Of a stretch of DNA of 64,000 nucleotides, positions 29,409 to 64,000 are shown one piece after another. Both the position numbers and the translations under genes were made by a program. The notes under the pieces are model-generated. The model was not told the origin of the DNA and ran no database searches. It worked only from the letters and a program-made list of their open reading frames with translations. The DNA comes from Amoebophrya sp. A120 (Eukaryota; Protista; Dinoflagellata). The stretch lies in contig CAJINV010000001.1 of the NCBI GenBank assembly GCA_905178155.1, positions 6,951,794 to 7,015,793 of the forward strand, read 5' to 3'. How positions within the stretch are numbered: position 1 is the first letter of the stretch; every line of letters starts with the position of its first letter.

Positions 29409-30719
29409 TCAAACCTGAAGCGCCTCGACGCCGGGTAGGCGCGAGACTTCGTGACGCCACACAACAAGTGCCTCGAGTCCGACGACTGCGCTCATGGCGG
29501 TTTTCGCGGACTTGACTGCGGCCGTGATCGCTTCCAGGCGTTGGTCCAGCTCCAGGATGCTTTCCAGCGACGCCCCGTCTTCTGCCATGTTCGTCCCCAG
29601 TCCGCCGGCGACAGTTGACACGATGTTGGCCAGACCGGCGTCGGACGTGCCACCCAGGAGGTTCCCAAGGGGATCGCCGCCCCCGACGCGGTCCCGGATG
29701 TAATCACGCTGGGCACGGCTGGCAGCGTACGGGCCATCCGTGAGCGGGCTGGAGCGCATGATGTCCCGCAGGCCCCTGCCTGTTTGGGCATCCACGCCTC
29801 GGTGCCCCAAAACCCCGCCCTGGAGGTCGCGCACGCAGCCGGCGGTTTCTTTGACGTCCAGGATGCGCATGTTCTCCGCACTGCACCGCTCTTGCATCAT
29901 CGCGCGAAACACATTCGGTCTTTCCATGGTGCCTTGGGCGGAAGGAGACGACCCGGCGGCCGAACCCGATGCGGTAGCGTCTGCTCCGGCGGATGCGCTA
30001 CCTTGCGCTGCCGCGCTGGCAGGGTCATTTCCCTCAAGCAATGCAAGAATGGTGGCTAAGTCAGGTACGTCTTCTTGTCCTTTGCCTTGTCCCTTGCCAC
30101 CAAGACCGGCGAACATGGCAGGCATCTCTGGCACGCCGCCTTTCCCTTTGCCACCAGCTCCGGCGAGTAAAGCATTCACATCTGGCATGCCGCCTTTGCC
30201 ACCAGCTCCAGCTCCGGCGAGTAAAGCGTTCATATCTGGCATGCCGCCTTTGCCACCAGCTCCAGCTCCGGCGAGTAAAGCGTTCATATCTGGCATGCCG
30301 CCTTTGCCACCAGCTCCAGCTCCGGCGAGTAAAGCGTTCATATCTGGCATGCCGCCTTTGCCACCAGCTCCAGCTCCGGCGAGTAAAGCGTTCATATCTG
30401 GCATGCCGCCTTTGCCACCAGCTCCGGCAAGTAAAGCGCCCATATCTGGCATGCCGCCCTTTCCGCCGGCTCCCGCAAGCAATGCACCCAAGTCGGGCAT
30501 GCCACCCTTGCCCCCACCAAGAAGCGCACCAATATCCGGCACACCGCCCTTGCCTCCAGCATTTCCTCCGCCTAAAAGCGCTGCAAGGTCCGCATTTCCG
30601 CCCTGTGGTGCGAGAAACCCACCTTGATATCCTTTTCCGGGGGATCCTTTGCCAGGGTTGTCACTCCCTCGCGCCACTGCGACTAGAGTCGCAAACACGC
30701 TCGAGATCTTGCAAAGCAT
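29409..30719 (-). CDS. Hypothetical secreted Gly-rich repeat protein (GGKGGMPDMNALLAGAGA repeats)
   Basis: ATG at 30719 gives signal-peptide-like MLCKISSVFATLVAVARG; in-frame 18-aa repeats. Confidence 0.7.
   Translation of the reverse strand: MLCKISSVFATLVAVARGSDNPGKGSPGKGYQGGFLAPQGGNADLAALLGGGNAGGKGGVPDIGALLGGGKGGMPDLGALLAGAGGKGGMPDMGALLAGAGGKGGMPDMNALLAGAGAGGKGGMPDMNALLAGAGAGGKGGMPDMNALLAGAGAGGKGGMPDMNALLAGAGAGGKGGMPDVNALLAGAGGKGKGGVPEMPAMFAGLGGKGQGKGQEDVPDLATILALLEGNDPASAAAQGSASAGADATASGSAAGSSPSAQGTMERPNVFRAMMQERCSAENMRILDVKETAGCVRDLQGGVLGHRGVDAQTGRGLRDIMRSSPLTDGPYAASRAQRDYIRDRVGGGDPLGNLLGGTSDAGLANIVSTVAGGLGTNMAEDGASLESILELDQRLEAITAAVKSAKTAMSAVVGLEALVVWRHEVSRLPGVEALQV
30127..30560. repeat. 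Coding tandem repeat, 54-bp unit; four identical copies at 30181-30396 plus degenerate flanking copies
   Basis: Unit tctggcatgccgcctttgccaccagctccagctccggcgagtaaagcgttcata starts at 30181, 30235, 30289 and 30343. Confidence 0.93.
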
Positions 30720-43296: not shown

Positions 43297-44227
43297 CTTG
43301 TACTTGTTTTGCAATTCGAAGTTTCTAGAATGAAAAAGCACAACTCAGTCACAAGCGGCCGGGCAAAAACTTAGTTGTCCGAGCTTTGCTTTTCTTTTTC
43401 TTCTTTCATCTTCGCAAATCTGTACGGCGCCGACGCAAAACCGAGAGTGATACATCCATGCGAACTTCGAAGCATACTACTTGACTCTCGCACCGAAAGA
43501 AGCGATCCTTTTCCTTTAGCGAGCGATTGGAGGCGAACAGAGACAAAAGTTTCTGCTATGCATGGCGCGTAGATGTGTCGGGCACGGAGTAGAGAACGAG
43601 TCAAGTGCTATTAGCTTGCTCTTAATTTCGTACTGCAAACATTTGAAGTTCAAGAAAGCTATCAGATTCATCGTCATGTGTAGTAGTAGAGAGACTTCGA
43701 AATAGAAACGAATCATGGAAATCATGCATTTAAAAGTAACAAAGCTCAAAGGTGCACTTGCGAAAAGCGCACGTCTGCAGCACGCTTCCGCCCGCTACCC
43801 GTAAAAAGCGCCAGCGTAGTTGACAAATTTCAAGGCAGGGGTGACTGCAGTGCATTTTTGTCTAGAAATCTCAACCTAGAATACCGATCTCTGCTAGTAC
43901 AAATCATTGCTGTGAAAGTAAAGCAAAAGTAAGCTTCAGACACCGATCTGCTAGGCGTTGTGAGCGAATCACGACCCTAGAAGACGCGTGCTATAGGTTT
44001 AAGATTCAATATCTGCTATTTTGTTTCAGTAGAAAACACCAACGAAAGATTTCGATTTGTTTGTTTGAATTAGAATTAGGAAAAGTAACTGTGTCTAGGT
44101 TTGAAAACCATAGGTAAACGAGACATTCTGCAATTAGAAGTTCTTTCTCTGCGTTAAATGACTTAGTCTGTGTTAAACATTTTCAACAAGTATTTGTTTT
44201 TTTTTCTGCAGCAACCACGGTGCGCGC

Positions 44228-47200
44228 TTACGAGTTGTCGTTGAGCATGCAGGCGACCGACTGCAGAACCCACAGCGACGGATGCACCTCGGTGTGTAAG
44301 TTTGCCTCAAACACCAGTCCGACACCCATGGCATTCCTGCGCAGCTGCGTGATGTACACCGGTGTTGGCAAACTGTTCCGCAACTTCAGCCTGTTTGCCT
44401 CGACCGGAATAATCTTCACCAAAGGCATCTGTTCCACCAGCACCTTCGGCAACTGCCGCGCCAAGCAGCCGTTCTGCAGGTCCCACCTGGCGCCCTCGAT
44501 GTACATGCCCTCAACGAAGGTGCCGTCCTCCATGGGGGCGTCGACTTGCGCCTTGTCGGTGAACTTGGTCACTTCCGTGTACATGGTACACTTATCCAGC
44601 GCCCACCCCTTCTTCCTACACGTCGTCTGCACCAAAGAGGACAACAGAGATTCTGGGATGTGCAGTCCCGACAGCCAGAAGACCCACGGGTCGCCCTCTT
44701 TCGCCCACGTGTCGTATTGAAGAAACCTCTTGGAGTAGTGGTCCATCCAGCTCCCGAGCGGCTTCTCCGTTTGCGGTGCCAGCTTCGCCCACATCGTGGG
44801 TAGGAACCCGTTGAAGAGGCTGGACCCGAGCTCGTCCAGCGCCTGCGACATACCGATCTCACCCTTTAACGCGCGCTTCAGATCCTTCAAAGACGCGTAC
44901 ATCCGGTTCGTCAACGCGTTCATGCGCTCCATTTCCTGCATCAGAACGACCTCGTTCGGCGTTGGCACGTCGTCCTTGATGAATTTCAGGTCGTCGTCCG
45001 GAATGCGCTTCAGAATGTCGTTCGCGATCTTGGCGATGTAGTCGTCTTTGCTCATCCCGCCGTCGCTGCCGCCGCTTCCGGTCTCCATGGCGAGCAGGCC
45101 GAACCAGATCTCCTTGGCGGCGTTGGTGAAATAGTTGATCTCGGCGTTCGGGTGCAGACCAAAGACACCTGTGCATCGGAACAACATTTTTGGAAAATAA
45201 AATCATGATCGCTCGACGGATTAGAAGAAAAAGCAAGTAGAGGCCGGAATAAGTCAGACAAAAACCAAAGAGCATTTTTATCAAAAACATACCATACCTG
45301 GACTCTGCGAGATCGGGAGCGCCAAGATGTGCGTCATGAAGTCCGCATGGTCCCCCTCCATGGGACACGTGTACTCGAAGCCGTCTTTGCTGAAGAAAAA
45401 GGGCACATTGTCGTCGAAGAGGAAGTCGCCCATGTAGTCCTCCAGATACGTATTCAGTACCCTCCTGTCGTAGTTGTCCGTCACACGCCCGCCGTACATG
45501 GCTTCACCGATGAGATACCTTAACGTGTCCCAGGGGATGACGGCGCCTTGGTCAAAGGATTTCTGCAGGTACAAAGCGGACAACTTGTTCGAAATCTTCA
45601 GATCCGATTCGTTAAAGTCGTAGGCGACGTTCCAACCGATCTTCCCGAACTTTCTCCTGTCCTGCACAATCGCGTGGAAGAAGGCGAGGACGTAGATGAG
45701 CGGCTTGAACGCCCAATGTGGGCACAAGGTCAGGTCCTCATCCGTCATCTTCGTGTAGGTTTGCTTCATGTTCAGTTTCAAACCGTCTGGCGGTTCGGTC
45801 ACGACCTTGAGGGATTTCTGCAGAATGCCCATCGGGAAGTCGTCGATCGGCATGGTGGTCAGCCACAGCCGGAAGTCCTTGTTCGGCTTCGTGATCCCCT
45901 CGAGAATTTTCTCCAGCGTCTTCAGCCACGACACCAGCAAGTGACAGTTCTGCAGAATCACCCACTGCCCGCGCTGCCACCCCGACTCGATGTTCGCGGC
46001 CGCGACCGGGCCCATGCCTTGACCGAGGGAGACGAAGCGGAACTTCGGCCCGACGAAACCCATCGCTTCCCCCAACTTCTGCAGATCCGACTGCGGATCC
46101 GCACCGGGGGACAAGACGAAGACAATCGGCGACCTTTCTGACGAAAGTGCGTAGATCTTGTCAAACGCCAATGACGGTGGCTGCACGAAGTAGTCGTACA
46201 GCCTCCACATGATGAAATTTTTCGTTGCGTTGATGATCCGATCCGGGCGGAAGCAGCGGATGATCAGCATCTGCTTGAAGGGGTCCAGTTCGCTGAACCC
46301 GCAGGGGAGGGTCTCCGACTCCGGGGTTTCCAAGTCGTACCACGCGCGCCACTCGCCGCCCTTGGAAATGATGTCGTCGCAGAGGGTTTTCATCGATGGA
46401 TCCAAGGTGGAGAGGAGTTCCAAATCCTTCCAAGCCCCTTCCGATATCCAGTTGTACGGGTTCTGCTTCTGCGGCTTCTCCAGGCTCGGGTTCCCCTTCA
46501 TGTAAAAGTCGAATTCCTTTTGCACCAGCTCGTCATCGCCCTTCATGATCATGGTGGTCATCTTGAAGGAGAAGAGGAGCTTGTGCTTCTCGAAAATCCC
46601 CATGCACGTGTAGTCGTACATCATTTGCGTGATCTTCTCCCTCAGATTTTTTAACCGGTTGTCCAGGATCCTGTCCGGTTTCGCCTCCGCAATCGCGTTG
46701 CTGAAAACTTCCAGGTAACTTCCCAGCGAGTACTCGTACATATTGGAAATCGCGACGAGTCCGCTCATCGTGAAGTAGAGAATCGAACCTCTTTTCGCGA
46801 CTTTCGTGTAACTCGATCGCGCTTTGTCGATTTCCACTGAAGTCAACGCCGCTGCAGCGAGCGATTCCCCGATCTCGATGGACTTTGCCTTCGCGGTGTT
46901 CAGGGTGTTGATTATCCTGAGTAAAAACGTCCCCACACCAGAGTCGGGATGGGAAATCTGCTAGACAAATCTGTCAGCTTTTGCTGTTGCGCATGACAAG
47001 TTTGGCCTCGTAGTGTAATCCTGTTTAGCTTCTTCAGCAGCATCGCAGATCTAGCACATCATGCTGATTCTAGCATCACAAATCCCAAAACACGACTAGA
47101 AACTGCTTCTCATGGATCTCCGCATGAGAAACATTTTCAGCATGCAGATTTGCATTACAACTCTGGGGTGGGGACGTTTTTACAAATGATATTGATCAAA

Positions 47201-50200
47201 TCCTCGTTATCCAGAATCGAGCCCTTACTGTTCGCGAGTTCCCTTAGCAAGGTGTCTTATCCTGAGTAAAAACGTCCCCACCCCAGAGATGTGATGCAGA
47301 TCTGCGAGCACAAGAGCGTTTGTAATGCGCGATCCCATGATGGGCAAAATCAATCGTGTTTTGGAACTTGTAATGCTGTAAACAGCATAAGGAGATCGAT
47401 TTGTTATGCGGCTTCCCTTGCTAAACTGCACTACACTACAGCCTGCAATTTGTCATGCGTGGTTCCCAAAACTTCAATGTTTGTGTTGCAAAATCCCCAT
47501 CTTGACTCTGGGGTGGGGACGTTTTTACTCAGGATATGTCTTCCAGCGTCTTCAGAATCTGCCGGTTGTCGCTCATTTGCTGCACCAGGGCTGCGCGTTG
47601 CGCCTCGAGGTCCGGCCTTTCGAATCCAACGACGACGTTCAGCAGCTGCGCGGCGAGCCCGTCGAGCGTGATGACGCAGTTCACGATCGAGACTTTGCCC
47701 ATCACTTCCGGCGTGTAGCTGGGGTTGGACAGCTTCGTACACAGGTTGAGCTGAAACGTCGGGGAAACTTCGAGCTCGCTGTCCCCGAGTTGCAGCATCT
47801 TCTGGCCGGAAACGATCGTGTAGGCTTTCTCCAAAACCGGGTCGATCATGGGGTCCAGTTCTTCGTCCAGGTTCTCGAACAAAAAGGGCTTTCCGTAGGT
47901 GATCGCCAGCTCGAGAAACTTGATGTAGTCGTCGTTGAAGGTCTTCACGGTCAACCCATTTTTCGCCTCCTTTTTCTTGATCCAGTTCACCGCCTGCATC
48001 TGCGGGTCAACGCACAGCGGGTAGCGGGCGCTACGGGTGACCAGAATACCTGAAATGTGATGTGTCATTGGGATTCTCTATTTCTGCGGGGTGCTGGTGC
48101 AGCTGAGAATGCATAATTTCACACTGCAAAAAACATGCAACAGAGAAAGCAAAATCCTGCGAAAATTTAGCCGATTAAACTTTTTCATTAATTATACCGT
48201 TCTGAATCGACAGTTCGTCCGCCGGCAGCCCGAAGCCGTTCCAGGCAGCGACCTCGACCTCACTCGTGAGCAAATCTTCCAGCCTGTATTTTTCGCTGAT
48301 CGGAATCTTGTTGTCCTTAATGTAGCCGTACCAGTCCACGTAGGCCATTTCCGTTCGGAATTCGTAGTTGAAGGGACCGGCGTAGGAGACAAAAGCGGCG
48401 TTGTTCAAGCAATCGCCGACTAACCTTGTCCTGATCTCCCCCTGCACCTCCAGGTCCGCAGTCCAGCGAACGCGTTCTCCCGCGAGACCGGTAATCAGCT
48501 GTGACGCGGCACCCAGACGCCGCTGCATCAAATCTGCTTCGTCCTTCAGTTCCTTCAGCTTCGCCGACTGCTCGGCCTCGTCAGCCTGCAGCTTGCCCAA
48601 GTTCTTGGACAACTCCTCCAGTTCCTCGTTGATGGCTTCCAGGTTGGCTTCCGCCTCTTCTTTCTGGTTCTGCAATTCCTTCACCAGTGCCTTCTTGGGC
48701 GCGACGGTCTTGGCAACGTCGTAGTACTTCGTCATCGCGAGCGTCTGTTTTTATTCAATAGGGTCGTGTAGACTTGCCTCTGGGTAAACAAGAACTTGAA
48801 CTACAAGACAGTTGATACTAAAACTTTCAGGTCGAGGCCGAACGTAAGAACGTAACAAACGTGCCATTTGAATCCAGAAAAAAATTCACTCGGAGTTGTC
48901 CGAGACTGACTATTCGAGGATGTTGCCAACTACGCGAACAAGTATACAACATCAAAGCCACTACATCAACATGAAAAAAGTCGTACCCACTGCAGAAGAC
49001 CGTAACCGGCCTTGGAAATGGTTTTCATCTTCGCGCCGTCGTTATCTACCAGAGTCTCCTTATCCGCGTTGAACACCACTCGGATTTGCTGGATCTGACG
49101 CTCCTTCATGTCATCCTTCGGGTAGGTTTGCAGGGAACGCAGGAACCCGGTATCTGACATCATCGCCTTCGCGCCCGCCCAGCCGTCTGCGGGGTTTTCC
49201 TTTCCCAGTGGTCTGAGAATCATGATGCACTTGGTCACCGCAGCGACCGCGGGTGGCGGGGTCGTGAATGCCTTCACCTCCGTGATGTCCTTTTTGTCGA
49301 GGTTCTCCAACGCTTCCGCCGCCGCGGCCAGCGCTGGCATTGCTGCCTGCAGCGCTTTATCAAATGCAAAAATGTCTGGGTCTGGAAACTTGTGATGCTA
49401 AAATGTGCATGATGAAAACACTTCCGAATGCAGTCCGGCGTGACAACTTCCCAAAACGCTTTCTCATAGGCAATCCGCATGAGAAACTGCGTCTATGCAT
49501 GACAAAAGAGGCTGCGACTTTTGTTGGTATATGCAATACAGATTTTCTAGGTTTGGAAAGCTAGCATTACAAGTTGCAATCCTCCAGACCCAGACATTTT
49601 TACAATCCATACGCTTGATCGGCGTCGGCCTTCTCCCGCACGATGACTTACTCCCATAACGCACCCCCTTGCTCACAAATGAAAAAACTCCGAAGGGATT
49701 CCGACGAGATTACGAAACTGCGAATGAGAATTGCTGCGGAGGGACTTGCCAAAAATGAGCTGAAGACCCTCCGCCCGCTCCTGATCGAACGGCCCGCCCC
49801 TGTGGCCGTTTTGCGATCGCGTTGGGCTCTGCCGCCTTTGCCATCACGGTCGACGAACAAGTAGATCGCAGAGAGCAAGTCCGTCGCTGCCATGGTCGTA
49901 GACCATAACTTTAGTAGCAGTCTAGTACGATCATAACTTTAGAAACAAACGCGCTGCTGTAACTTAAGAAACAGAGAGGACGCAAGTCGTAAATTATAAA
50001 GAAAAGCAACCGGCACGACCGAGATAGAAACAGGAAGGGACTGGGCGCAGATAGACGAGAGCAGGCGGGCCGTTCTGGTTTTCTCGCTTTCAGCGCGCGG
50101 GGGATTTAAGTGGGGAAAAGGCGAGCCGTATGGCTGTGATGCCGGGCGTGCGCACACCACCACAAAAGGCGTGCGCCCCACACCATCGGGGCTGCGTGTC

Positions 50201-53200
50201 CACGCGCCGGCCCCGAGCTGTTTACGCAGGCACCCAACGCGCAAAAGTGTGGGCCGCATACCATCGGCGCTGTGTGTACACGCGCCAGCCCCGGGCGGAT
50301 TACGTAGGCGCCCAACGCGCAAACGCGTGGGGCAGCAGCATGGCAACGAGGCCGCGGCGGCACGCCGGTGGTTTTAGAGGGGGAAGAGGCGGGCCGTTCT
50401 GGTTTTCTCGCTTTCAGCGCGCGGGGGATTTAAGTGGGGAAAAGGCGAGCCATATGGCTGTGATGCCGGGCGTGCGCACACCACCACAAAAGGCGTGCGC
50501 CCCACACCATCGGGGCTGCGTGTCCACGCGCCAGCCCCGAGCTGTTTACGCAGGCACCCAACGCGCAAAAGTGTGGGCCGCATACCATCGGGGCTGCGTG
50601 TCCACGCGCCAGCCCCGAGCTGTTTACGCAGGCACCCAACGCGCAAAAGTGTGGGCCGCATACCATCGGCGCTGTGTGTACACGCGCCATCCCCGGGCGG
50701 ATTACGTAGGCGCCCAACGCGCAAACGCATGGGGCAGCAGCGTGGCAACGAGGCCGCGGCGGCAAGGAGGGGGAAGAGGCGGGCCGCTGGGCTTTCTTTT
50801 TGCTTTTCCCCAGCATATCAAGCAATTCTTTGCGCAACTACAGCTGATGACTAATTTTTTCGAGTGTACAGCCAAAACTGCCTTTGCAGGATCCTTTGTG
50901 CTATTTTTTTCGAGTGTATCTTGTTCGCGAGGTGTATGCAGCAAACGAATCTTTCACAAGATTGAGAACAACCATAGCGCCTAACTCTACAAGGCTGCGG
51001 CACTCTAACCCCCAACAATAACTGAAAACACAACTGACAGCAATAAAGTACGCGCATCCTGAAACAAATAAGATAGAGAGCCGCGTCGTTTGGTTGTGTA
51101 GTGTGCTTTTGCCTTTACAGATCGAGAGACACAACCAATAAGATAGCCGGCCGCGTCGTCGGGTTGTGTGTGCTTTTGCCTTTACAGATCGAGAGAGACA
51201 GCGCGACCAGACCGGGGAAAGTTGGGCGCCCAGGAACCGGCAGCAATACCATCGGGGGTAATGTTACCCACGACGGCACTGCGTCCGATGTTTTTTCTAG
51301 GCCTTCGCTGTTTTGGTCGGGTTTGCATGATGTGTGCCCTCTTTAATAGCTTTTTTTCAGCCTACCCAAAACCCCCACGATACGCAACTTTTAAGAATCC
51401 GAAGAGACTCCGAAAAGACTCCGCAAAAGGCGTCGGGAAGATGCGAAAAAAAGCGGCCGCCTTCATCATAGCAGGCGGCGAAATTTTCGGAGCGAAAAAA
51501 TGGGAGGCAGTTTCGGATTCTTTGCGGAGTCGCGGACTTGCTGCACTCCGGAGACGCGGACGTGATGCACTCCTTTGCGGAACATGAAATCGCCCGCGAC
51601 TTCCACCCAGAAAAGAAGAAAAGCCAAACGGCTCGCCCTGTTCCCGCCTAAGCCCGTCGATCTTCTTGCGAACGAAGGAGATCAGGGCTGGCCTGAGATG
51701 GTGGGCGGGAGAAAGAAAATGGCCAAACGGCGCGCCTCGTCCCCCTCTAAAACCATCGGCGGGCCGCCTTGATATGCTGCTCGCACTTTTGCGCGCCGGG
51801 GGGGGCGCCCCCATATCATAAGCAGGCCGGGGGCGCGTGTACACGCCGCCCCGATGGTGTGGCGTCCGCGCCTTTTGTGGTAGTTGTTAGCGCACGCCCA
51901 ACATCACGGCCAAACGCCCCGCCTTGCCCCCCTCTAAAACTATCGGCGCGCCGCCGCGACCTCCTTCGCTGCCATGCTGCTGCGCCACGCGTTTCTTTGC
52001 GCGCTGGGTGCCTACGTAATCCGCCCGGGCCTGGCGCGTGGACACACAACGCCGATGGTATGCGGCGCACGCTTTTGCGCGTTGGGTGCCTGCGTAAGCA
52101 GCTCGGGGCCGGCGCGTGTACACGCAGCCCCGATGGTGTGGCGCGCGCGCCTTTTGTGATGGTGTGCGCACGCCCAGCACCACGGCCAAACGGCTCGCCT
52201 TGTCCGCACCTAAATCCACCGGCCCCCTGGCGTTAACTGAAAGCAAGAAAACCAGAACGACCCACCTTGTTCGCATCTCAACACCACGGCCAAACGGCTC
52301 GCCTTGTCCCCACCTAGATTCGCCGTTCGCTGAAAGCGAGAAAACCAGACGGACCCGCCTGGTTGGTTCGCATCTCAATCCACCGGCATCATTGCGGAAA
52401 CGGTCGGGGCATGCCTGGTATGCTGGGGAAAAATAAAAACAAATAGAAAGAAAGCCAAACGACCCGCCTCCTCCCCCTCTAAAACCATCGGCGTGCCGCC
52501 GCGGCCTCGTTGCCATGCTGCTGCCCCACGCGTTTGCGCGCTGGGCGCCTACATGATCCGCTCGGGGCTGGCGCGTGTACACACAGCGCCGATGGTATGC
52601 GGGCCACGCTTTTGCGCGTTGGATCCCTGCGTGGGCAGCTCGGGGCTGGCGCGTGTACACGCAGCCCCGATGGTGTGGGGCGCGCGCCTTTTGTGGTGGT
52701 GTGCGCACTCCCAGCATCACAGCCATACGACTCCCCTTGTCCCCACCTACATCCGCCGTTCGCTGAAAGCGAGAAAACCAGAACGACCCGCCTGGTTCGC
52801 ATCTCAGCCCATCGGCCTCATTGCGAAAACGGTCGGGGCTTGCTTGATATGCTGGGGAAAAGTAAAAAGAAAGCCAAACGGCCCGCCTCTTCCCCCTGTA
52901 AAACCATCGGCGTGCCGCCGCGGCCACATGGCCACGCTGCTGCCCCACGCGTTTGCGCGTTGGGCGCCTACGTAATCCGCCCGGGGCTGGCGCGTGTACA
53001 CACAGCGCCGATGGTATGCGGCCCACACTTTTGCGCGTTTTCGCTGCCATGTGGTCCAGACCTGCCGCGGATCGCTTTTTGTGGACTGCGCAAAACGCCG
53101 GCAGTTCAAAGCTTCGAAGCGCTTTGTGTTAATGTTGCTTCGCCAACAAACCGAGTCGCGGCGGACCGATTATCTTCTGAACCGTGAAGAAGCTTTTTCG

Positions 53201-56200
53201 AGTCGCTGCCCCGTTGTTTTTCGTCTCCGCTTTCGGATTGTTGTCGTAATGTTTTCGGAGTTTTTCGGACGGCCTTGGGAGGGGGTGCGTTACGGGAGTA
53301 AATGACGATGTTGTCGGCCTCGATCTTCGCTGCGGCCGCATTCGCCTCCTCTTGCCGCTTGTTCGCGACTTCGGTCTTCTGCTTGATCTCCTCGATCAGA
53401 GCCGTTACATTTTTCGCGTTCTCGTCCACCACCACCACCTTTTTACTCAGTTCCACCTGCATCACCGCCACCTGGTCCGCAGCCTCGATGAGCTTCTCCA
53501 AACCGCCGCCCAGTCGCTTCTTCAGCGTGTCGGTGTTGCCCCGGTTGAGTTCCAAAAACTCAGCGTAGTTTGCCAAGTAATCCAAGTAGTTCTTGGGCGT
53601 CGCGAAGTTCTTTCGCTTGAACTTCGCCTCAAACTCCGGGGAATAATTGGTGGTCACGCTGGTGTGCACGTAGGAGATGGTCTTCGCGATCTGGTCGCGG
53701 TTCTCGGGTGGGAGCTCCACGGGTTGCAGGAAGTACTCCGCGACCGCTAACAGCGCGTCCTCCGGCCAGGAGAAGAACCAATCGATCGTACAGCAGGAAA
53801 CCAAACCGGGGAAGTTCCGGCACCGGGTCCGGAGTTGCGATCCCGCCGGGGACATGGCGAGGACCATGTGCAAGTTGTCCTTCAGCATATTCACGACCAA
53901 GCCCCACAGTCCGGTTTCCGGAATGCCCTGCTTCTTCGCTTCGGGCCGTGCTACCTGGTACAGTGGCTCCTTCTCGTCATCTGCCATCAACGCCGGCACC
54001 ATACCGACAGTCAAGATGTTGTTGATGTACTCCAAGAAGCCCTCCTGCACGACGTCCTGATCACGGAAGAGGAAGCTGTGCGGCTTCTTAATCGCCGCGG
54101 TGTAGAGCGCTTTCAAATCGTCGCGGATGTTGCTGTCGCCGTACCCACGGGACAGTTGGATCTCGTACAGCGTGTAGCAGGCTGTGTAGGTTCCGAGCCT
54201 GGTTAGGGATTGCTTTCCGCTACCACCAATACCGATCAAGAGCGCATGGCCTCGTTGGATCCGGATGATCCTGTGCACTCTGGTCAAGTGCGCCATGGCA
54301 TCGATAAACAGCACCAAGTTCATGATCTTGTTCTCCAAGTTGTAGTTTTCCAGCACCGCCGACATGGTTTTCTTCACGTTTGCCCATTCGTTGAGGTCCA
54401 CGTATTGCCGCTGCATCAGCCAGGGGGTTTCGGATTTCGACATGTGGTCTAAAGCGTCCTGGAAGTCGCCGAAAACCAAGGGGTCGGTCATGACTTTCTC
54501 CGCGACGGCACTGTAGTTGCTGCCGATGATGGACTTCATTTGGTTCGCCACGAACTCCTTGTCCTTGTCGTCGTTCAGCCGGTCGTCATAAACCCGCAAG
54601 CACTCGTTTCTGAACATGCGGACCACTTGCACGTCGCTGGACAAAGTTTCTGGCACCCCGGTCTGAAACAGGTTTTGGAACACGCGGGACAGATCTCGGA
54701 GCGAGAAGATGTAGTGGAACTTCGACGGCGTCGGCGGCAGTGCTGCGATGATGTTGTTGTGAAGTTCCATGGCGCATTGGGGCAGTTTCAGGGTTGCGTC
54801 CTTCGCCCCATCGGCAAACGCGCCGTTCTGGAAGCGGAACGCGAGAATCGAAGCGTAAATCCGCTCCACGGTGGACACGGACGGCGCCAGCACGCCGATA
54901 ATCGCGTAAAGGGAAACGACACGCGGGTCGATGTGGTTCCTTCCGCTGCCCGGTGGCTGCATCGCGGAGATGAAGTCGCAGTCAAGGATCAGCATGCGCT
55001 CTAATTCCAACCGGTGGTAGAAGTAGCCACGCTCCACCAGGAACTTCAGCAACGCAAGCGGCTGCTGCGTGCCGTACGTGTCGATCTTGGGCATCGCGAG
55101 ATCATCGATGAACACGCGCAATCGCTTCCCCGCCTCCGGCCCGTACTGGCGCCCGGTGCGCTTGCTGACGTTGTCCTCAATCGTCCTCTGGAAGTCCATT
55201 GACGTCGTTCGGGAGGAAAACGAGATGTTCAAGATGATGCTCTCCTCGTTGCTCCACCCAGTTTCCAGGCACGCTTGCGTCGTGACAGACTTTGCCGTAC
55301 CGGACTCACCAACGAACAGCGTCGGCTGGGACACCGACATGAACCGCTTGATCAACCAGCTGTACCGCGTGGTATCCACCGTCGGGACCAAAATCTGGTT
55401 GAAGTTGATGTCGTTTGGCGGCGCCCACTCCTGGATCAGATCGTCCCATGGCACCCAGCGGCCGCTGGATTCGAAATCGAAGTAATTGTCATAGAGCGGG
55501 GAGCTGGGCATCATCTTGCCCGAGCGCTTGCGGATGAACTCGTCAAACTTTTTACGGCCCTCCTCGTCGACCGCGGCGCCGATGGACCAGACTGTCGGGC
55601 AGTTCATTTTTCGACGTCATCGAGCAAGAAATAAGGGCGATACAACAGCGAGGAGTGCACACGCACAACGCTCATACTTAGACTTATCGCTTGTATTGAA
55701 AAATATATAAAGCTGCAAGAGCCTACACCTAGAAGTACAACTTCTTACTCGAAAGATTCTATACCGAGGCACAGAACGTAGACATGCTCCAGCAGGTCGA
55801 GGGAGATTTCGTTCCCCGACGTCGTCATCATGGTGTCACGCGAGCCCACGTCCTCGCCCTCTTTCGGGCCCTGGCTGTCGTCCACGTCCGCGATCAGAGA
55901 GTCAAATAGCCTCGTGAACTGGTACATCGCATCCGTACCGACCTGACTTCGGGGGATTTGCAATGAAACCGGCTCTCCGACAGAGTCGCCCACTCGCCCC
56001 TCGTACACGTACAAAACCAGCTGCGGGTAGAACTTGTCGAAGCATTCCAACAGCAGCTCCTTCATCGGTTGGTGCGTGCCGCACTTCAGCCTCACCCACC
56101 GGTCGTAGTACGGGCCGCAACCCAAGTTTCTGTCGTCCACGTACACCATCCCGCAACGGGACACGGTTGCGGGAGACGCGTACTGCAAGTCGTAGACTTC

Positions 56201-59200
56201 GAACAACATCGCACAGTGCCCCTCTAACCTGATACGCTCACCGTTGGGGAGTGTCAGGAGTTTGTTGTCGTCCATGACGGAGTTCATGTTCTCAATCCAC
56301 AATGCATCCACATCTCCGTCGTACATGATGTACCTGCGCTCCGGCTTCTTCGGGTCGTAATTGCTGTTCATGTCACGGAAAATCTTGGAAAGCAGTCCAT
56401 CCGTCCAGTCACGCGTTGCGGGGTTCAAAACACCGTAGAGCTCGTCGGTAGTAACCGCCTTATGAGAGTGCACAACTCCCCCTCCCCCTCATTTGTCATG
56501 CAAAATACCTAATTTACGCCTTGGCTCTCGGCACTGTTTGCGTGACAAGTTCTGGCAGCCCAAATAGCACTACAATCCTGTCCAAATTTGTCATGCGAAA
56601 TCTGTATTCTTGCTGGCGCTTGTATTGCTGTTCATGCAATACAAATGAGGGGGAGGGGGAGTTGTGCACTTCTATACGCCTTCGGGTTGATCGGGAAAAT
56701 CTTGGTTGGCAATGCCAGCGCTTTCTTCTGCGCGCCGGCCAGCGTGTCGACACACACAGATTTGCCACCGCAGGTTGGGCCGACGACCATTGTCGAGTGG
56801 CGGGTGAGCATGGTCTCGTACAGTTGCATAACCTGCGTGGGTCGTGATTTTTCAGATTCACAATCATCACAACAGAGGCAAACATTTATCCTCCTGCTTC
56901 GCTTAACAAAAAGAGACACGCTTCTAGCGAAGAAACATCAACACAACCGCAACTACTACAAGAACCACGGCGGGCCACCAGAAGATCATACAAGAAAATA
57001 TTCCAGAATGTTTTCTCCATGGTACTTAGTACCTTATCCACTTGCAAATCGAATGTCTCGTCGTATTTGCTGCGCTCCGGGCGGTTGTGATTCTCCGTTA
57101 AGACGTCGATGATCCCCTGCTTCAGCTCCGGGTTCCCGACACGTGGGCAATCCAGGCCCGGAAACAAGTCGTTCAACAGCCCGAGAAACAGCGGCACATC
57201 CTGCTTAACAAACTTCGGGATGTTCATATCACGCAACGCGCGCATCAGCACCACATCCTCCCCGAGATCCGGAGACCCGCGCTTCATATCCCCCGCCATG
57301 ACAAGGACTGACTTCAGCGCGCGGAGTTTGAAATCGTAGTGGTACTGCTTGGACAGCTGTCCGGCGGAAAGCGCGTACAACACGGTCATCTTTTTCGCGA
57401 GCACCTTCGACAGCAGGAAACCCTCGGACATCAACATATTGTCGCAAATCATCATCAAGTCGGGAACGATCATCGTCACCGGCCGGAACAGTGCCTTCAA
57501 GTTATCCGGCAGCTCGGAACGCCCCGCGTAACCGGGATTCATCGTGATGAAGTACCCGATCGTGACCTTCAGCGCAACCTCGCGGTTCAACATCTCGATG
57601 GTCTTGCTACCCGCGGCCAGCCCGAGCTGGATCGTCTTGATCTGCGCCGCCACCACGGATAACACCTCCGGATTGATTCGGTTAAACTCATCGAAGCAGC
57701 CCCAGAATCCGGTTTCGGACAACCCGGAGAAAATCACACCCATCGCCCGGTAATCCAGACCGTCACCGCAATTTGTCACGACGCAGGGGATCGCGAGCGC
57801 TTTCGCCAAATCCTTGGTGGTTTCGGTCTTACCCGTACCGGCGGGCCCGGCGGGGGCGCCGCCCATGTAGAAGGTGAGCGCGGTAGTGAGTGTCATCACG
57901 CAACGATCGGTAAGCGGGGTAATGACCAGCCGCCCATTCAGTCCTTGGTACTCGTACGTGTAGCGGAGCACACCCGTGCATTGCTTTACCTGTTCAATAG
58001 TTAGTAGTCGGCGGTAGAAAGAACTCTTTGCGTGGTCACAAGAGATCACGGATGACAACTTTTTTTTACAAAGTGCACTCGCGACTACTCGGCAAAGTTT
58101 AAGTTTTCTATCTCAAGAGAACAAGGCATGACATTCACGCACTTCTACCTGGACGTCGTCTATCCTGCGATCCCAGTAGAACCGCAGCTGCGATTCCCAG
58201 TCGAAGTCGTCGGCGGACAAGACGCTGTCCCTGACGAACCGATCCACAATGTCCCGTGCGTGCACATCCAAGATGATCAACGAGTTCACCTTCTTCCGCT
58301 GCTGCTTCGAGATGTCCGACCCGACCAGCAGCACCAGGTCGGTCACCTGCTGGTTCTGGTTCGACAACTCCGTCTTCATCCCGTTCTTGTCCCCAGCCGC
58401 CACTTTGCGGAACGCGTCCTCCACGACCCAGGTCCACCAGATCTGGGTCCCGAGAATCGCGACCATGCCGTTGTACTGCTGCAGCCACTCGATACGCGGC
58501 TCCGATGCGTAGGTCCACACTGCCTTTTTCGATAACCGGAGCAGGGTCTCCTGCATCTGGTAATCCACGCGGTTCAACCAATCCTCGATCGCCCCCTCCG
58601 CCATCTGCGTCTCGTGGAACGTCAGGAACTCCTTTTCCTCGGACCACATTCCCGCGACGACTTTTGGCCGGGGGAAGCTCAGTTCCTTGCAGTTGTCGAA
58701 CACCTTGATCATGTGGGGTTGCACCGCCAAGCAGTCACTGGTGCCGAGAATCGACAGCAGCTCGTCGTCGGAGATCAAGTAGAACCGCGGGAAGGCGGAC
58801 CGCTTGGTGTCCAGGTAGTCGGTTAGCGATTTCTGGATCTTGTCAAACGCGCCGATGAGATCCTTAAACTCGGCGTACCGGGCGCCCTCCTGCGCGCAGC
58901 AGGCGTTCATGACGTTTTTGTTCTGGATTGTGGCGACCATGATGCCCAGAAACTGCTTGTGCACCTTGTCGAACTTCTTCGCTTCCTCCGGCAATTGCAG
59001 GCGAATGTCGTCGGACTCCAGGAAAATGGATTCCAAGTACATCCACTTCCGCTGGCACTGCAGCCACACGTCGAACACCTCGGACACGATGGAGAGATTC
59101 TTCTCCCACCTTTTGATCACGTCCAGCAGCTTCGCCGCGTACTTCGAACCGCCCATGGACTGCAGAGTTAGTAAGTGATCGTCCAACACCAAACGCATTT

Positions 59201-62200
59201 CCTCATTCGGCTGCAGCAGCTGAATGTCACCCTTGTGCGGGTACATCTGGAAGTCGCAGCTCCGCCAGAACGCATCCACCTTCTGCAACTCGTTTTCAAT
59301 CTTCAATTCGTTCTGCGCGGTGATGACAATTTCGTTCACTTCCTCCGGGAAACGGTGCAAGCCGAGTCGGAAAACCTGCAACAACGTCATCTTTGTGGGA
59401 TCCAACTCCGCTTTCTTTTTCGCGGCCTCGTCCATATCGGGGTCGTCATTCCCCCCGGCGAGTTCCTGCAGCTCCTTCCAGTGCTGTGGCTTGATCGCCG
59501 GGTGCTTTAAAGATTGGATCAAGGGAACGGAAGATTTGAAATCAGAAACAGTTTTTTCCAAAGTTCCGAACGCCGGCACCTCGCCGATTTCCTTCTTGTC
59601 CTTTGGCATCCGGCGCACCTTCTTGTCGAAATCCTCGGCGGACTTGTTGAGCGCCTCCAGATCGAGGTTCTTCCAGGAGACCGACGAAAACTCGAGGACC
59701 ATGGCAGCGTGCGCGGAAAAAACGTCGTAGATGGCTCGGTTGATTTTCATCTCCCGGTCCATGGCTGCGAGCTCTGGGCAGGCTACAATGGGGAGCTGGA
59801 ACAGAGTTTGGGCCTTCACGAGCTCCTCGCGACGCTTCATGTACGTCTTCAGGTCGGATTCGTATCTGGAAGATAATTTTCAATTTCAAAACCTGTGCTC
59901 AAAAAAAAAGTAAAACAGATCAAACACATGCCTCGCAAAACCTGTGAAGGAGCACCAGCGAAAAAGCAACGGAATCTACCTCTTCATCAATTCTCGGCCT
60001 TCCTCCAACGTCAGCTCGCCGCCGTCCGCGGCTGTTTGCAAGCCCGCGGTGGCGGGGCCGGAGGACGCGAATTCTTTGTAGACATCAATCAGCTCGTCGT
60101 TGAACTCTTTCACTTGGGTCTCCGTGACTTGCGAAAACGTCTCCTTTACCGATACCAACCGCCTGTCCCTCGTGAGCGCCAAGTCTTTCAGCGCTTTCCA
60201 CTGCTCCGGCAGGGCGTTCGCTGCGTCCACTTCGTTCTCTTGGTCCAAAGGTTCGAACTTGTGGATCACAAGGGTCCGATACCGTTCCTGCACCTCGTGA
60301 ACGACACGCGCCTCTTGGTCCATGGACATGGACATAATTTGGCTCACCACACCGAGAACAAATTTCAGTTTCTCCAGCGTGTCTGGCGTCTCGCAAGACA
60401 GCTGCTCGGTGAACGTCGCGATCTCCTTCGTCACGAGCTCCAGTTCCCTCTGCGCGAGGCGCTGGAGAATGCTTCCGTAGGCTTGGACCCACTCCATGGT
60501 CTGTGCGCGAATCCCGGCAATCACGGCCGTGGAATCGATGCGGACGAAGCCGATATCTGTTTTTTTTTTTAGGTTTCGCAGCTCCCAAGAAGAAGGAGTC
60601 GCGCAGGCAAGCATTCGAAGCCGTGAACGCAGCGCAACGCCTCAGCGAACCTCTGCACCTGAGAAGCGCTGCACCTAGGACAAGCGCTCCACTTTCTTCA
60701 GCGCGGCACGACTCAAGCGAGGCACTACTTAAGGGAGGCACTACCTAAGCTGCGAGGCACTACCCCTAAGCGGGGCGCTACTTTAGCGAGGCACTACTTA
60801 AGAGCGAGGCAAATCGAGACACTACTTAAGCGCGGCAATACTTAAGCGCGACACTACCTAAGCGCGGCACTACTTAAGCGAGGCACTACTTAAGCGAGGC
60901 ACTACTTAAGCGAGGCACTACTTAAGCGAGGCGCTACTTGGGCGAGGCGCTACTTCCTGAAGTGGCGCAAAATCTCGACCAGGCACTACTTAAGCGAGGC
61001 ACTACTTTCTTAAGCGAGGCGCTACTTTCTTAAGCGAGGCACTACTTAAGCGAGGCACTACTTAAGCGATGCACTACTTAAGCGAGGCACTACTTAAGCG
61101 AGGCACTACTTAAGACGAAGCACTTAAGCGAAGCACTTAAGCGAAGCACTGAAGCGAAGCACTTAAGCGAAGCACTGAAGCGAAGCACTTAAGCGAAGCA
61201 CTGAAGCGAAGCACTGAAGCGAAGCACTGAAGCGAAGCACTGAAGCGAAGCACTGAAGCGAAGCACTGAAGCGAAGCACTGAAGCGAAGCACTTAAGCGA
61301 AGCACTTAAGCGAACCGCGTGAGCGAACCGCGTGAGCGAAACACGTAAGCGAAGCACTTAAGCGAATAAGCGAAGCACTTACGTAAGCGAACCACACAAG
61401 CGAAACACATAAGCGAGACACATAAGCGAAACACTTAGGGGAAACTCCTAAGCGAAACACTTAGGCGAAACAGATAAGCGAAACACATAAGCGAAACACT
61501 TAACCACCGCAAAATAAGGTTATTCCAGTCTTTTCTCATCATGATCATGATGAGGCTCGACATACCTTTTTCCCTCGGATACGACGCCAGCCCCTCCGCT
61601 AATCCCTTGTAGACGTTGATGTATACGTCGAAGAAGACGACCGTGGGTTTTCGGTCAAAAAGCTTCTCCAACTCCTGCTTTCCCTTGGTGTCCCACAATC
61701 TCCACTGCGTGTCGTACTTCTTCCAGGAGCGCAGGAATTTGCTCATCACCTGGAACACGTTCTGAATGTTGTTCTGGATCGCGATTGTCATCTCGATCAG
61801 CGCGGGGTTCTGGTAGATATCCCGGTAGAAGGTGAAGTCCGTCAGCTTTTGGTCCTCCTCCTGCTGAGGCGGCGGTGGAACTAATCTGCAAGTGCCCTCC
61901 ATCCAGCGGACAAAGAAGTGCGCGGACTGTAGGACGTTCTGCAGCAGTTTGGTGATCGTCTTGAAGACCTGGTGCAGCGTGGACAAAACCACGTCCGGCG
62001 CATTGAATTGCGCCTTGATTTTCAGCAACACCGACTTCGCCGGTGCCTCCATCTTTCCCACCGGATTCGTGTAGCTGGTGTCGGTCGCGCCGGGCGCGAG
62101 CAAGTTCTGCATCACGCCCTGCGCGAAAGAGCCGGGCACGGCCAAAACGCTGGCCTCCTGCTGCATAGTCAACGAGTCCTGCGCGGTCAAGTTACTATTC

Positions 62201-64000
62201 GTGAACAGGGTCTGGAAGCTGGCCATCGCGCGGATCAGCATGGTCGTGATCGCGTTGAAGATCCGCCTTTCCCAGTACACATAGTACTCCGCCATGGCCG
62301 GGCTCGACCCGGTTTTCGTGCCCGCGGTGGTTTCCTCGATTTTGATCAAAAAGGGTGAAATTGACTCGTACTTCTTCACCAGGTCAGCCACCTGCTGCTC
62401 GCGGAACTTCTCAAAGTACTCGTAGAACTCCTGGTGGTCCATCACTTCCTGGTCCTCCTGCTCCCAGTTGAACGGTTTCACGAGGATGGCCTTTTCGATC
62501 GCGTCCACGACGTTTTCGATCCGTTCCTGGGATTTCTCGACCTGATCCCGGACGGAGCGGAGCGTGGAGACCCCGCGGTTCCCCTCTTCGATGAAGTCCA
62601 GGATCCCCAGGGAGTTCCAGTTGAGCACCCCCAACCCGGGTTCCATGCAGGCGTCGAGCTCGCGGAGCTGACCTTTGAGGAGATTTCGCTGCACCGTGGA
62701 CATGTCGCCGACCACCTCGTCGTACGCATTCGCGAGAAGCTGGAGCTGCTCGACAAATTGCTTGTATTTCTCCTCCTGTAGCCCGACGTTGAGCACTAAT
62801 TGCGGCAACTCAAACCCGCCAAGCTGGTCCAGCATCTTCGCTTCCCGGGTGAGCAAATCTAGTTGCACGTTGAAATTGACCGCGAAGCCACCACCCTCTT
62901 TTTTGCACAAAATGTTGTTCCCGAGCGCCTCCTGCACGGTGGATACGGCTTGCTCCTCCCAATCTGCGAACAGATTCTGCTCGAACGCGAGAATGTCCTT
63001 CCCCAGATCCACGTAGTCGCGGCAAGCAACCTGCCCCTCGGGGGTTTGTAACAGCTGCGGCATCGTCTTGAAGCTGAGAACCGGCCGCTTGATGCGGGCA
63101 AAAATACTCCGCGCCCACGCGATGCTGCCCGCTAGTGGTGGCACGTCTTTCGGCGGCTTGTAGTTCACGCTCTCTTTCTCGAAGAGCTCGCGCATGCGCT
63201 TGACCTGTTGATCAATGTTTTAGCAGGAGGTCGGTTTATTTTCATCATTTACATCATTCTCAAGATCGAAAAAATAAACCGTCGTCGTGTCAAAACGCTA
63301 GTACCCTCCTTATGACCACATAAGTAAAATCCCATCAATTAATCTAGATCATAGTACCTCGCTTCCGTACTGCTTTAATATGTCCGCGAACTTCTCGCTC
63401 ATCTTCGCGTTGATCGTCTCCCGCGATTCGATGTTCTTGAAGTTCTGCAGCAGTTGAAACGCGCCTTCCGCGGACCGCAAATTCTGAAACGAAGTGTATC
63501 AAGTGTAAAAGTGTCTGGGTCTGGATACTTGTAATGCTAAAAGTGAATGATAGACGCGCCGCAATGTGCAGCTATGCATGACAAATTTTGTGGCTGCCAT
63601 GTCTTACGTATTCCGCATGGCAAACTGCCTTTTCGAACGACAGTTAAGGGGGCTCTTTCGTGCCTATGCAACACAGATTCTCGAGTCATGCCAGACAAGC
63701 ATGACAAACTTGCACTCTTCCAGACCCAGACGTTTTTGCATTTGATAAAGTGTCCAGAAAGACAATCGCCCTTCGCTCGATCACCTCCACGCGTTCGCGG
63801 AACCGCCCCATCATAGGTTCCCACACGGTCGAGTAGTTCCGCTCGTCGAAAGCGCGTCGAGCAGAGACTTTCTGAAGTTCTGCTCTCGTCAAGTCTGCCA
63901 CTTCTTTCAAGAGCTCGTCGATGTCCGCGCTGTCGCCCGTCACTTCTTTCAACTCCGGACCGAGAAATTTGTAGAACTGGTCCAGCACTTGCGTGACCTC
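44228..64000 (-). CDS. DNAH10: Axonemal dynein heavy chain, DNAH10 (inner-arm I1 alpha)-like; multi-exon, 5' end outside window
   Basis: P-loops [32 protein letters not shown]; [19 protein letters not shown]; CFDEFNRI; [21 protein letters not shown]; [23 protein letters not shown]. Tail segment [19 protein letters not shown] resembles DNAH10 (subtype recognised from memory). Confidence 0.93.
46913..47191. mobile_element. TIR/TSD introner family B, 279 bp, in dynein
   Basis: TIR tatcctgagtaaaaacgtccccacaccagag vs revcomp tatcatttgtaaaaacgtccccaccccagag; TSD ttgat at 46908-46912 and 47192-47196; removal gives [13 protein letters not shown]. Confidence 0.94.
47258..47536. mobile_element. TIR/TSD introner family B, 279 bp, in dynein
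   Basis: Perfect 31-bp TIR tatcctgagtaaaaacgtccccaccccagag; TSD tgtct at 47253-47257 and 47537-47541; removal gives [23 protein letters not shown]. Confidence 0.95.
49358..49611. mobile_element. TIR/TSD introner family A, 254 bp, in dynein
   Basis: TIR tatcaaatgcaaaaatgtctgggtctgga vs revcomp tatggattgtaaaaatgtctgggtctgga; TSD cgctt at 49353-49357 and 49612-49616; removal gives [14 protein letters not shown]. Confidence 0.93.
50062..50823 (+). repeat. Left arm of GC-rich repeats: ~324-bp unit x2, with a duplicated ~78-bp subunit
   Basis: aggcgggccgttctggttttctcgctttcagcgcgcgggg starts at ~50062 and ~50386; subunit ccatcggggctgcgtgtccacgcgccagccccgagctgtttacgcaggcacccaacgcgcaaaagtgtgggccgcata is repeated. 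Confidence 0.88.
51720..53040 (-). repeat. Right arm: about three diverged copies of the same unit in inverted orientation
   Basis: Reverse complement of 52842-53040 matches 50640-50823 (…gattacgtaggcgcccaacgcgcaaacgc…ttttccccagcatatcaagc); further copies near 52420-52790 and 51930-52200. Confidence 0.85.
56461..56676. mobile_element. TIR/TSD introner family C, 216 bp, in dynein
   Basis: TAT termini and perfect 30-bp core TIR agtgcacaactccccctccccctcatttgt; TSD cgcct at 56456-56460 and 56677-56681; removal gives [16 protein letters not shown]. Confidence 0.94.
60715..61502. repeat. Compound minisatellite within canonical dynein intron 60557-61565: 16-bp gcgaggcactacttaa, then 13-bp gcgaagcact(t/g)aa, then 13-bp gcgaaacacataa variants
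   Basis: Tandem arrays seen directly. The host intron has GT at 61565 and AG at 60557 and joins PREK|DIGFVRID. Confidence 0.92.
63497..63747. mobile_element. TIR/TSD introner family A, 251 bp, in dynein
   Basis: TIR tatcaagtgtaaaagtgtctgggtctgga vs revcomp tatcaaatgcaaaaacgtctgggtctgga; TSD aagtg at 63492-63496 and 63748-63752; removal gives [16 protein letters not shown]. Confidence 0.94.

What the first reader, a model, noticed from the sequence alone, without database searches (positions are those of the whole stretch)
49643..53306. 3.65-kb foldback-like element behaving as an intron in a dynein heavy chain
Seen: a distinct 22-bp TIR (TTA...TAA ends), the same 5-bp TSD rule, more than ten times the size of the other introners, and two arms of GC-rich repeats in opposite orientation (50062-50823 and 51720-53040) around a ~0.9-kb centre. 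Internal ORFs are repeat-derived and I recognise no transposase. Established: modular inverted tandem arms characterise Foldback-type DNA transposons. Inference: excision is size-independent and tolerates a different TIR family; this may be a non-autonomous derivative close to the parent transposon, able to form a very large RNA hairpin.
Basis: partly seen in the sequence, partly recalled or inferred. Interest (0 to 1): 0.75.

Follow-up and report, generated by a model that had tools for sequence, protein, structure and literature searches.

The report
Large foldback-like transposon spliced as intron
A 3.65-kb insertion with transposon-type ends and two mirror-image repeat arms interrupts a flagellar dynein gene of what is likely an Amoebophrya parasite and is skipped by an assembled intron-free copy of that gene, so it is likely cut out of the messenger RNA as an unusually large example of this parasite's known non-standard, transposon-derived introns.

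Summary
Confirmed. The element spans 49648-53301 (3,654 bp), with a 22-bp TIR (21/22 match, TTA...TAA) and a 5-bp direct repeat. It interrupts the stalk of a DNAH10-like dynein. A 14,950-nt intron-free contig from an RNA-type run matches 6,731 exon bases without a difference and leaves 31 letters where the 31-nt micro-exon belongs; by length, the element plus one repeat copy is removed. Two solved dyneins keep register across the joint with no indel. None of the six possible cuts is GT-AG. Eight of nine neighbouring TAT elements fit the published Amoebophrya A120 introner motif; this element does not. It is foldback-like in layout but fails the Foldback/Mutator features (TSD 5, not 8-10; arms start 414 and 262 bp inside). 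No transposase trace was found, so nothing supports 'close to the parent'. The arms are predicted to pair over about 600 bp, yet the TIRs pair without them (4 of 4 shuffles). Kilobase-size A120 introners are already catalogued. Verdict: new variant of a known kind; its value is as a low-copy test substrate for the unknown splicing chemistry.

The parts
49643..49647 (.). target-site duplication, left copy (ATGAC; GTCAT on the gene strand)
49648..49669 (+). left terminal inverted repeat, 22 bp, starts TTA; 3' end of the intron
49670..50061 (.). left subterminal unique region; first ~75 bp weakly inverted to the right one, with an ACTCCGAA motif
50062..50825 (+). left arm: two modules (324 and 439 bp, 97-99% alike) containing 78-bp units
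50826..51616 (.). non-coding centre with a 67-bp duplication (51063-51200) and a head-to-head cluster of TCCGAA-type motifs (51397-51530)
51617..53039 (-). right arm: 4-5 modules in the opposite orientation, more decayed towards the centre
53040..53279 (.). right subterminal unique region with TCCGAA motifs pointing inwards
53280..53301 (-). right terminal inverted repeat, 22 bp; 5' end of the intron
   Evidence: DNA-type contig runs 30 letters into it
53302..53306 (.). target-site duplication, right copy
53302..55591 (-). upstream dynein exon (AAA3/AAA4 region and start of the stalk coiled coil)
   Evidence: RNA-type record 8; Pfam AAA_7, AAA_8
49612..49642 (-). 31-nt micro-exon between the large element and the next introner (36 nt of non-element DNA with both repeat copies)
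   Evidence: 31-letter gap in record 8; open frame; register in solved dyneins; letters themselves not displayed
49358..49611 (.). neighbouring 254-bp TAT...ATA introner with 5-bp TSD, also absent from the RNA-type contig
48987..49352 (-). downstream exon, microtubule-binding stalk
   Evidence: Pfam MT E 4.5e-17
44228..64000 (-). host gene: axonemal dynein heavy chain, best solved matches DNAH10 / inner-arm f-alpha type; runs off the window's end

Best explanation
A 3,654-bp element with 22-bp terminal inverted repeats and a 5-bp flanking duplication sits in the stalk-coding sequence of a dynein heavy chain gene and is skipped by an intron-free contig of that gene; it is likely a recently inserted, low-copy, non-autonomous DNA transposon that is likely removed from the pre-mRNA, with one copy of the duplication, by the same process that removes the small introners around it. 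Inferred mechanism: the two TIRs pair in the transcript and bring the ends together; the cuts fall in the duplicated 5-mers at the foot of this stem so that five flanking letters leave with the element, whatever its size or TIR family. The chemistry is untested. I favour the host's modified spliceosome (published as lacking U1), with the stem standing in for normal splice-site recognition (about 0.45 overall), over a spliceosome-independent cut-and-ligate route (about 0.35). The inverted arms likely grew by internal tandem and inverted duplication and are not required for removal.
For: Shown: TIR and TSD. One 14,950-nt contig of run X3 (RNA is the tool's guess) lacks all four GT-AG introns and all four TIR introns of the stretch laid, has 0 differences over 6,731 exon bases, and leaves 31 letters between 53302 and 49352. 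Joining 49612-49642 there gives one open frame of 2,264 codons. Human DNAH10 (8j07_k8: residue 3232 to 3246) and 8glv_Cn (3249 to 3269) need exactly the residues this model supplies (my count from the alignments). Retention gives a stop after 65 codons. X3 depth is 0 in 6 of the 8 bins wholly inside the element, 1.7 and 7.5 in the other two, against 81 on exons. In DNA-type run X1 a single-copy contig runs from the exon 30 letters into the element without forking at the insertion point, and interior depth is 1.3-4.2 times single copy. TIRs pair fully in the predicted fold, also with the interior shuffled (4 of 4). Farhat et al. (PMC7789003) describe IR/DR-bounded non-canonical introns, missing U1 and a hairpin model.
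Against: One RNA-type contig from one sample; the 31 letters and the joint are not displayed (lists cut short), so exactness rests on length and protein register. RNA and DNA runs are different samples, so an insertion-free culture is not excluded. Contigs drop rare forms, so imprecise products could be hidden. Summed contig depth is not a copy number; interior differences from the window may be sister copies or polishing errors. No other copy was read, so mobility is inferred. Nothing here tests the chemistry.
Confidence: 0.8

Rival explanations
1. Same element, but removed by a spliceosome-independent system triggered by paired ends (like animal SOS splicing or euglenid nonconventional introns). 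This rivals only the chemistry step and is counted within the 0.8 above.
For: No GT-AG register in 4 of 4 TIR introns laid. SOS splicing is triggered by ITR pairing regardless of sequence and interior (PMC12779559). Euglenid TIR introns reach several thousand nucleotides and leave as circles without lariats (review PMC11282704).
Against: SOS splicing is imprecise, whereas two pairs of TIR introns here each lose exactly 10 flanking letters. Amoebophrya keeps nearly all spliceosomal proteins and U2/U4/U6. This element can start with GT in one register (GT..AA).
Confidence: 0.35
2. The insertion is polymorphic: the RNA came from cells with an empty site, and the element-bearing allele may be a broken gene.
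For: 'Element plus one TSD removed' is identical to the empty site. The element looks young (TIR 21/22; interior contigs about 99% alike). X1 and X3 are different samples; 233 joints were not shown.
Against: The single-copy X1 contig passes from exon into element without a fork. X3 is identical to the window over 6,731 bases and holds a 233-nt element piece with no difference at depth 3.6 (not linked to this locus). Three other TIR insertions in the same gene are skipped in the same way.
Confidence: 0.1
3. The ends are real, but the interior (order and number of modules) is partly an assembly artefact, or arms and centre are a separate repeat nested in a smaller TIR element.
For: No listed contig spans it; contigs over the interior differ from the window (for example 6 substitutions and a 4-base gap in 892 nt); depth is uneven, 1.3 to 4.2 times. 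Arms start 414 and 262 bp inside the ends.
Against: Modules differ by 3-30% with a gradient, which collapse or duplication by an assembler would not give. An 892-nt DNA contig joins centre to right arm and a 472-nt one joins left arm to centre. No inner TIR with TSD at the arm borders came out.
Confidence: 0.07
4. It is a true Foldback (Mutator- or P-type) element, or a near-parent of the TAT introners.
For: Inverted tandem modules around a non-coding middle match the outer- and middle-domain scheme given for Tetris (PMC4079207).
Against: TSD 5 bp, against 8-10 for Tetris; no long flanking domain shared by both ends; no transposase; TIR lacks the TAT...AAA motif.
Confidence: 0.05

Closest known systems
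Introner elements / non-canonical introns of Amoebophrya A120 and A25 (Farhat et al. 2021, PMC7789003; abstract, sections 10-12 and 16, passages, supplement search)
   Same: Non-GT-AG ends, terminal inverted repeat, 3-5-nt direct repeat at the junction, no transposase, hairpin; 8 of 9 neighbouring TAT elements fit the A120 motif.
   Different: 3,654 bp; that study analysed only introns of 40-1000 bp. TIR starts TTACT, neither A120's TAT...AAA nor A25's TTA plus two purines. Inverted modular arms are not described in the parts read.
A120 introner families of Gozashti et al. 2025 (PMC12130899; passages; all 58 A120 rows of Dataset S2; SI captions)
   Same: TIR families with 5-bp TSD (fam38, fam19); kilobase-size TIR introners (fam103 about 1.2 kb; fam86 1,619 bp with satellites; fam200 aligned over about 2.5 kb); small families whose ends are scored GT/AT with never AG/AC (fam26, fam71, fam200, fam99), as this element would be.
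   Different: No row gives a 3.65-kb model or a foldback note; families needed at least 4 members in different genes. Family sequences were not visible, so identity with one of them is untested.
Foldback elements (Tetris, and FB and Galileo as cited there; PMC4079207, passages and one section)
   Same: Tandem modules in opposite orientation, non-coding middle, uneven module number, non-autonomous.
   Different: Arms not part of continuous long TIRs; TSD 5 bp; acts as an intron. A search for 'foldback' with 'introner' found 0 papers.
SOS splicing in C. elegans and human cells (PMC12779559; abstract, main text parts 1-2 of 4, discussion)
   Same: Removal of TIR transposons from exons, triggered by paired ends, independent of interior.
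   Different: SOS leaves indels at varying sites; here the dominant product appears exact. Its factors were not looked for in this organism.
Euglenid nonconventional introns (review PMC11282704, passages)
   Same: TIR-paired ends, TSD-like repeats, lengths up to several thousand nucleotides, non-canonical borders.
   Different: Other lineage; pyrimidine|purine border rule and CAG/CTG motifs not seen here; circular products untested here.

Membership tests
Amoebophrya introner elements (class) | intron ends other than GT-AG | tested here: met
   six registers GT..AA, TC..AG, CA..GT, AT..TC, TT..CA, TT..AT
Amoebophrya introner elements (class) | terminal inverted repeat and 3-5-nt direct repeat at the junction | tested here: met
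   22-bp TIR (published range 8-20; TAT elements here reach 28-32) and 5-bp repeat
Amoebophrya introner elements (class) | removed from mRNA | tested here: met
   one RNA-type contig skips it; junction letters inferred from length and register
Amoebophrya introner elements (class) | repeated in the genome | tested here: inconclusive
   interior depth 1.3-4.2 times single copy, variant contigs, contig break 30 letters inside the end; no second copy read; no genome held
Amoebophrya introner elements (class) | no internal transposase | tested here: met
   0 of 23 internal frames reach a Pfam cut-off
A120 TAT introner families | TIR starts TAT, about 7 variable letters, then AAA | tested here: not met
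   met at both ends by 8 of 9 neighbours
A25 TTA introner families | TIR starts TTA followed by two purines | tested here: not met
   TTACT
Foldback (Mutator-type, Tetris scheme) | tandem repeats in opposite orientation around a non-coding middle | tested here: met
Foldback (Mutator-type, Tetris scheme) | long TIRs continuous from the ends, with a shared flanking domain | tested here: not met
   22 bp plus about 75 weakly similar bp; the rest of the 392- and 240-bp subterminal regions unrelated
Foldback (Mutator-type, Tetris scheme) | 8-10-bp TSD | tested here: not met
   5 bp
Foldback (Mutator-type, Tetris scheme) | mobilised by a Mutator or P transposase | not testable with these tools
   no autonomous copy available
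A120 fam38 (Ginger-like) | 5-bp TSD | tested here: met
A120 fam38 (Ginger-like) | TA/TA termini and ORFs with Copia/Gypsy homology | tested here: not met
   TT/AA termini; no Pfam hit at cut-off; RepBase not searchable here
SOS splicing substrate | variable sites with indel scars | tested here: inconclusive
   dominant contig exact by length; contigs drop rare forms; raw-read runs did not cover the gene
SOS splicing substrate | dependence on AKAP17A, CAAP1, RTCB | not testable with these tools
   no genome held

The most novel reading that the evidence does not exclude
This parasite has a precise, sequence- and size-blind excision system that measures from the foot of any paired-end stem and removes element plus five flanking letters without the spliceosome. 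Any 5-bp-TSD transposon, even a 3.65-kb foldback of a foreign TIR family landing in an essential coiled coil 36 bases from another introner, becomes a scar-free intron at once.
Probability: 0.25. Interest if true: 0.8.

Novelty: new variant of a known kind. Interest (0 to 1): 0.43.

Why it matters
How Amoebophrya removes more than 60% of its introns without GT-AG ends and apparently without U1 is open (PMC7789003); a search for Amoebophrya, intron and lariat listed only a review and an unrelated preprint. The published family analysis stopped at 1 kb. This case suggests removal does not depend on size or on the TAT motif. It is also a practical substrate: the small TAT elements are so abundant (summed depth 59,000-330,000 against about 48) that intermediates cannot be assigned to a locus, whereas this one has few copies and unique subterminal sequence, so lariat versus circle and the true cut register can be read by one RT-PCR. 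It is one case within a described phenomenon, which caps the interest.

Tried and rejected
No whole genome is held, so no genome-wide search for copies or a transposase was possible. TIR pattern in metagenome contigs: 0; in viral contigs: 0. Arm pattern in metagenome contigs: 1 match (L001), confined to the 24-28 letters of the pattern, taken as chance. Rfam on 49300-53600: 0 matches at E up to 1. No run was listed as an RNA holder on record; raw RNA runs X9 and X10 held only a short introner-like match (115 and 2 reads) and did not cover the gene, so they say nothing. Of 11 listed runs 4 were laid; only 44200-56200 was laid, so the two TAT elements further up the gene have no RNA check. One search gave 99 relaxed candidates, mostly chance; I kept 10 (exact 5-bp repeat, TAT or TTA ends with a TIR); because the scans looked for 5-bp repeats, '10 of 10 have 5 bp' only shows that none is longer. 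Idea that the centre holds a nested copy of the ends: similarity scores reached by 4-29 of 300 shuffles, and the ACTCCGAA motif (6 seen, 0.6 expected) was chosen after looking, so it is a lead only. Idea that the arms are needed to pair the ends: rejected for minimum-energy folds; folding during transcription not modelled. No transposase or integrase among 20 long frames of the window scanned. Our earlier notes: nothing by sequence or for this genome. Supplement look-ups hit a misnumbered file. Figures S19-S25 of PMC7789003 (motif logos) and the family sequences of PMC12130899 could not be seen and may already include this family.
Full report
Observation. The element runs from 49648 to 53301 (3,654 bp). 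Its ends are a 22-bp inverted repeat with one mismatch, flanked by ATGAC on both sides. The TIR occurs only at these two places in the window with up to three mismatches, and in none of 100 shuffles. Self-comparison shows a left arm at 50062-50825 and a right arm at 51617-53039 (inverted matches from 51726), with inverted matches up to 347 bp at 91%, and a 791-bp centre. The arms are built of modules of about 320-540 bp that contain 78-bp units. In the shared core the two left modules are 97% alike, 92-95% like the two outer right modules, 87-90% like the third and 70-77% like the innermost. I infer an older right array and a younger left arm copied from, or homogenised with, its outer part. 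Between TIR and arm lie 392 and 240 bp, of which only about 75 bp are weakly inverted (score 43, 0 of 300 shuffles). None of 23 internal frames scanned reaches a Pfam cut-off; Rfam finds nothing.

Host gene. The minus strand encodes an axonemal dynein heavy chain from beyond 64000 to 44228; the best solved matches include DNAH10 and an inner-arm f-alpha chain. The element lies between the AAA4 region and the microtubule-binding stalk. Only 36 bases separate it from a 254-bp TAT introner. If retained, it ends translation after 65 codons.

It is skipped in an intron-free contig. In run X3 (RNA by the tool's guess), one 14,950-nt contig at depth 81 maps in seven pieces with no difference over 6,731 bases and lacks all eight introns of the stretch, four of them GT-AG, so it behaves as mRNA. 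It ends one piece at 53302 (record position 10262) and starts the next at 49352 (10294). The 31 letters between are not displayed. Of 41 non-element bases there, 10 are gone, which is one 5-bp repeat per element. Joining 49612-49642 gives one open frame of 2,264 codons. From the alignments I count that human DNAH10 residue 3232 to 3246 and chain 8glv_Cn 3249 to 3269 need exactly the residues supplied, with no indel in the coiled coil. The pair of TAT elements at 46913-47536 shows the same sum (71 bases available, 61 kept). Because of the repeat the cut can lie in six registers; none is GT-AG, and none is GT-AG for the three TAT elements either.

DNA side. In run X1 exon depth averages 47.6 (13 bins) and the eight interior bins are 1.3-4.2 times that, while TAT elements sum to 59,000-330,000. 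The tool warns that summed depth is no copy number; I read it as a few further copies. A single-copy contig runs from 56200 to 53272, 30 letters into the element, one short of the tool's bridging rule. I infer from it that no empty allele survives in that assembly graph and that the end at 53301 is shared with another copy. The left junction is not among the listed pieces and nothing listed spans the element; an 892-nt and a 472-nt contig join the centre to each arm, with 6 and 1 substitutions. RNA and DNA come from different samples, so an insertion-free culture remains possible (about 0.1).

Folding. The transcript strand folds at -2,225 kcal/mol with 689 pairs spanning more than 800 bases, a 24-bp terminal stem and about 600 bp of arm-to-arm helix. 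With the interior shuffled the energy is -1,506 to -1,550 and long-range pairs are 160-238, yet all 22 TIR pairs form in 4 of 4 runs. The TIR duplex (-43 kcal/mol) lies within the range of the TAT elements (-16 to -62). The large hairpin is therefore a real prediction, but the ends do not need it.

Mechanism. Shown: anatomy, position, skipping in one contig, restored frame. Inferred: transposon origin and recent insertion; end pairing as the signal; cuts within the repeats that remove five flanking letters; same machinery as for TAT elements. Untested: the chemistry. I favour a modified spliceosome because removal appears exact and Farhat et al. report a nearly full spliceosome without U1; SOS splicing is described as imprecise. 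Euglenid introns show that paired-end introns can leave without lariats, so the alternative stays close.

Comparison. Eight of nine TAT elements match the published A120 motif at both ends, so the window is likely Amoebophrya of that type; I could not compare it with that assembly. Farhat et al. analysed introns of 40-1000 bp only, and list a longest A120 intron of 35,152 bp. Gozashti et al. list 58 A120 families; I saw all 58 rows. They include TIR models of 1.2 and 1.6 kb, one with satellites, and a 5-bp-TSD family, but no 3.65-kb model or foldback note; their sequences were not visible. Against the Tetris foldback scheme the element has the tandem and middle domains but lacks long continuous TIRs and the 8-10-bp TSD; that paper notes that foldback structure may arise independently in different lineages. 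'Foldback' with 'introner' gave 0 papers; subscription journals are largely outside the library. So it works like an Amoebophrya introner and probably belongs to that class, is not a member of the TAT families, and is foldback-like without being a Foldback.

Verdict. Real, spliced out with about 0.8 confidence, a new variant of a known kind. Interest 0.43.

Noticed in passing
window 46913-47191 and 47258-47536: Two 279-bp TAT introners with nearly the same TIR, 66 bases apart in the dynein gene; both are skipped by the RNA-type contig with 10 flanking letters lost in all.
   Followed up: partly
window 60696-61503: About 800 bp of 13- and 16-bp tandem repeats inside a dynein intron.
   Followed up: no
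window 16650-21861, minus strand: ERO1 and FAD-binding domains in one frame (18670-20934), followed by FAD-binding and cytochrome b5 domains (16650-18092): a possible ERO1-flavocytochrome fusion gene, interrupted by two TAT elements at 18443 and 20833.
   Followed up: no
window 22395-26405, minus strand: ERCC4-domain gene with a 265-bp TAT element at 24076-24340.
   Followed up: no
window 49643-49647: The TSD fits the palindromic pattern RTNAY (0 of 9 TAT sites; 1% of 5-mers), which adds two pairs to the terminal stem and offers a GT start; several small published A120 families are scored GT/AT at the start and never AG/AC at the end.
   Followed up: partly
window 49687, 51397-51530, 53238-53261: ACTCCGAA-type motif points inwards at both ends and forms a head-to-head cluster in the centre; possible protein-binding sites, motif chosen after looking.
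   Followed up: partly
window 56461-56676: 216-bp TAT element whose TIR lacks the AAA stretch of the other eight; no RNA check.
   Followed up: no
window 49562-49604: Raw RNA run X9 has 115 reads with a 90-95% match to a TAT-type TIR but other flanks and no dynein coverage.
   Followed up: no
window 30154-30473: Six copies of a 54-bp unit inside a long frame without Pfam match.
   Followed up: no
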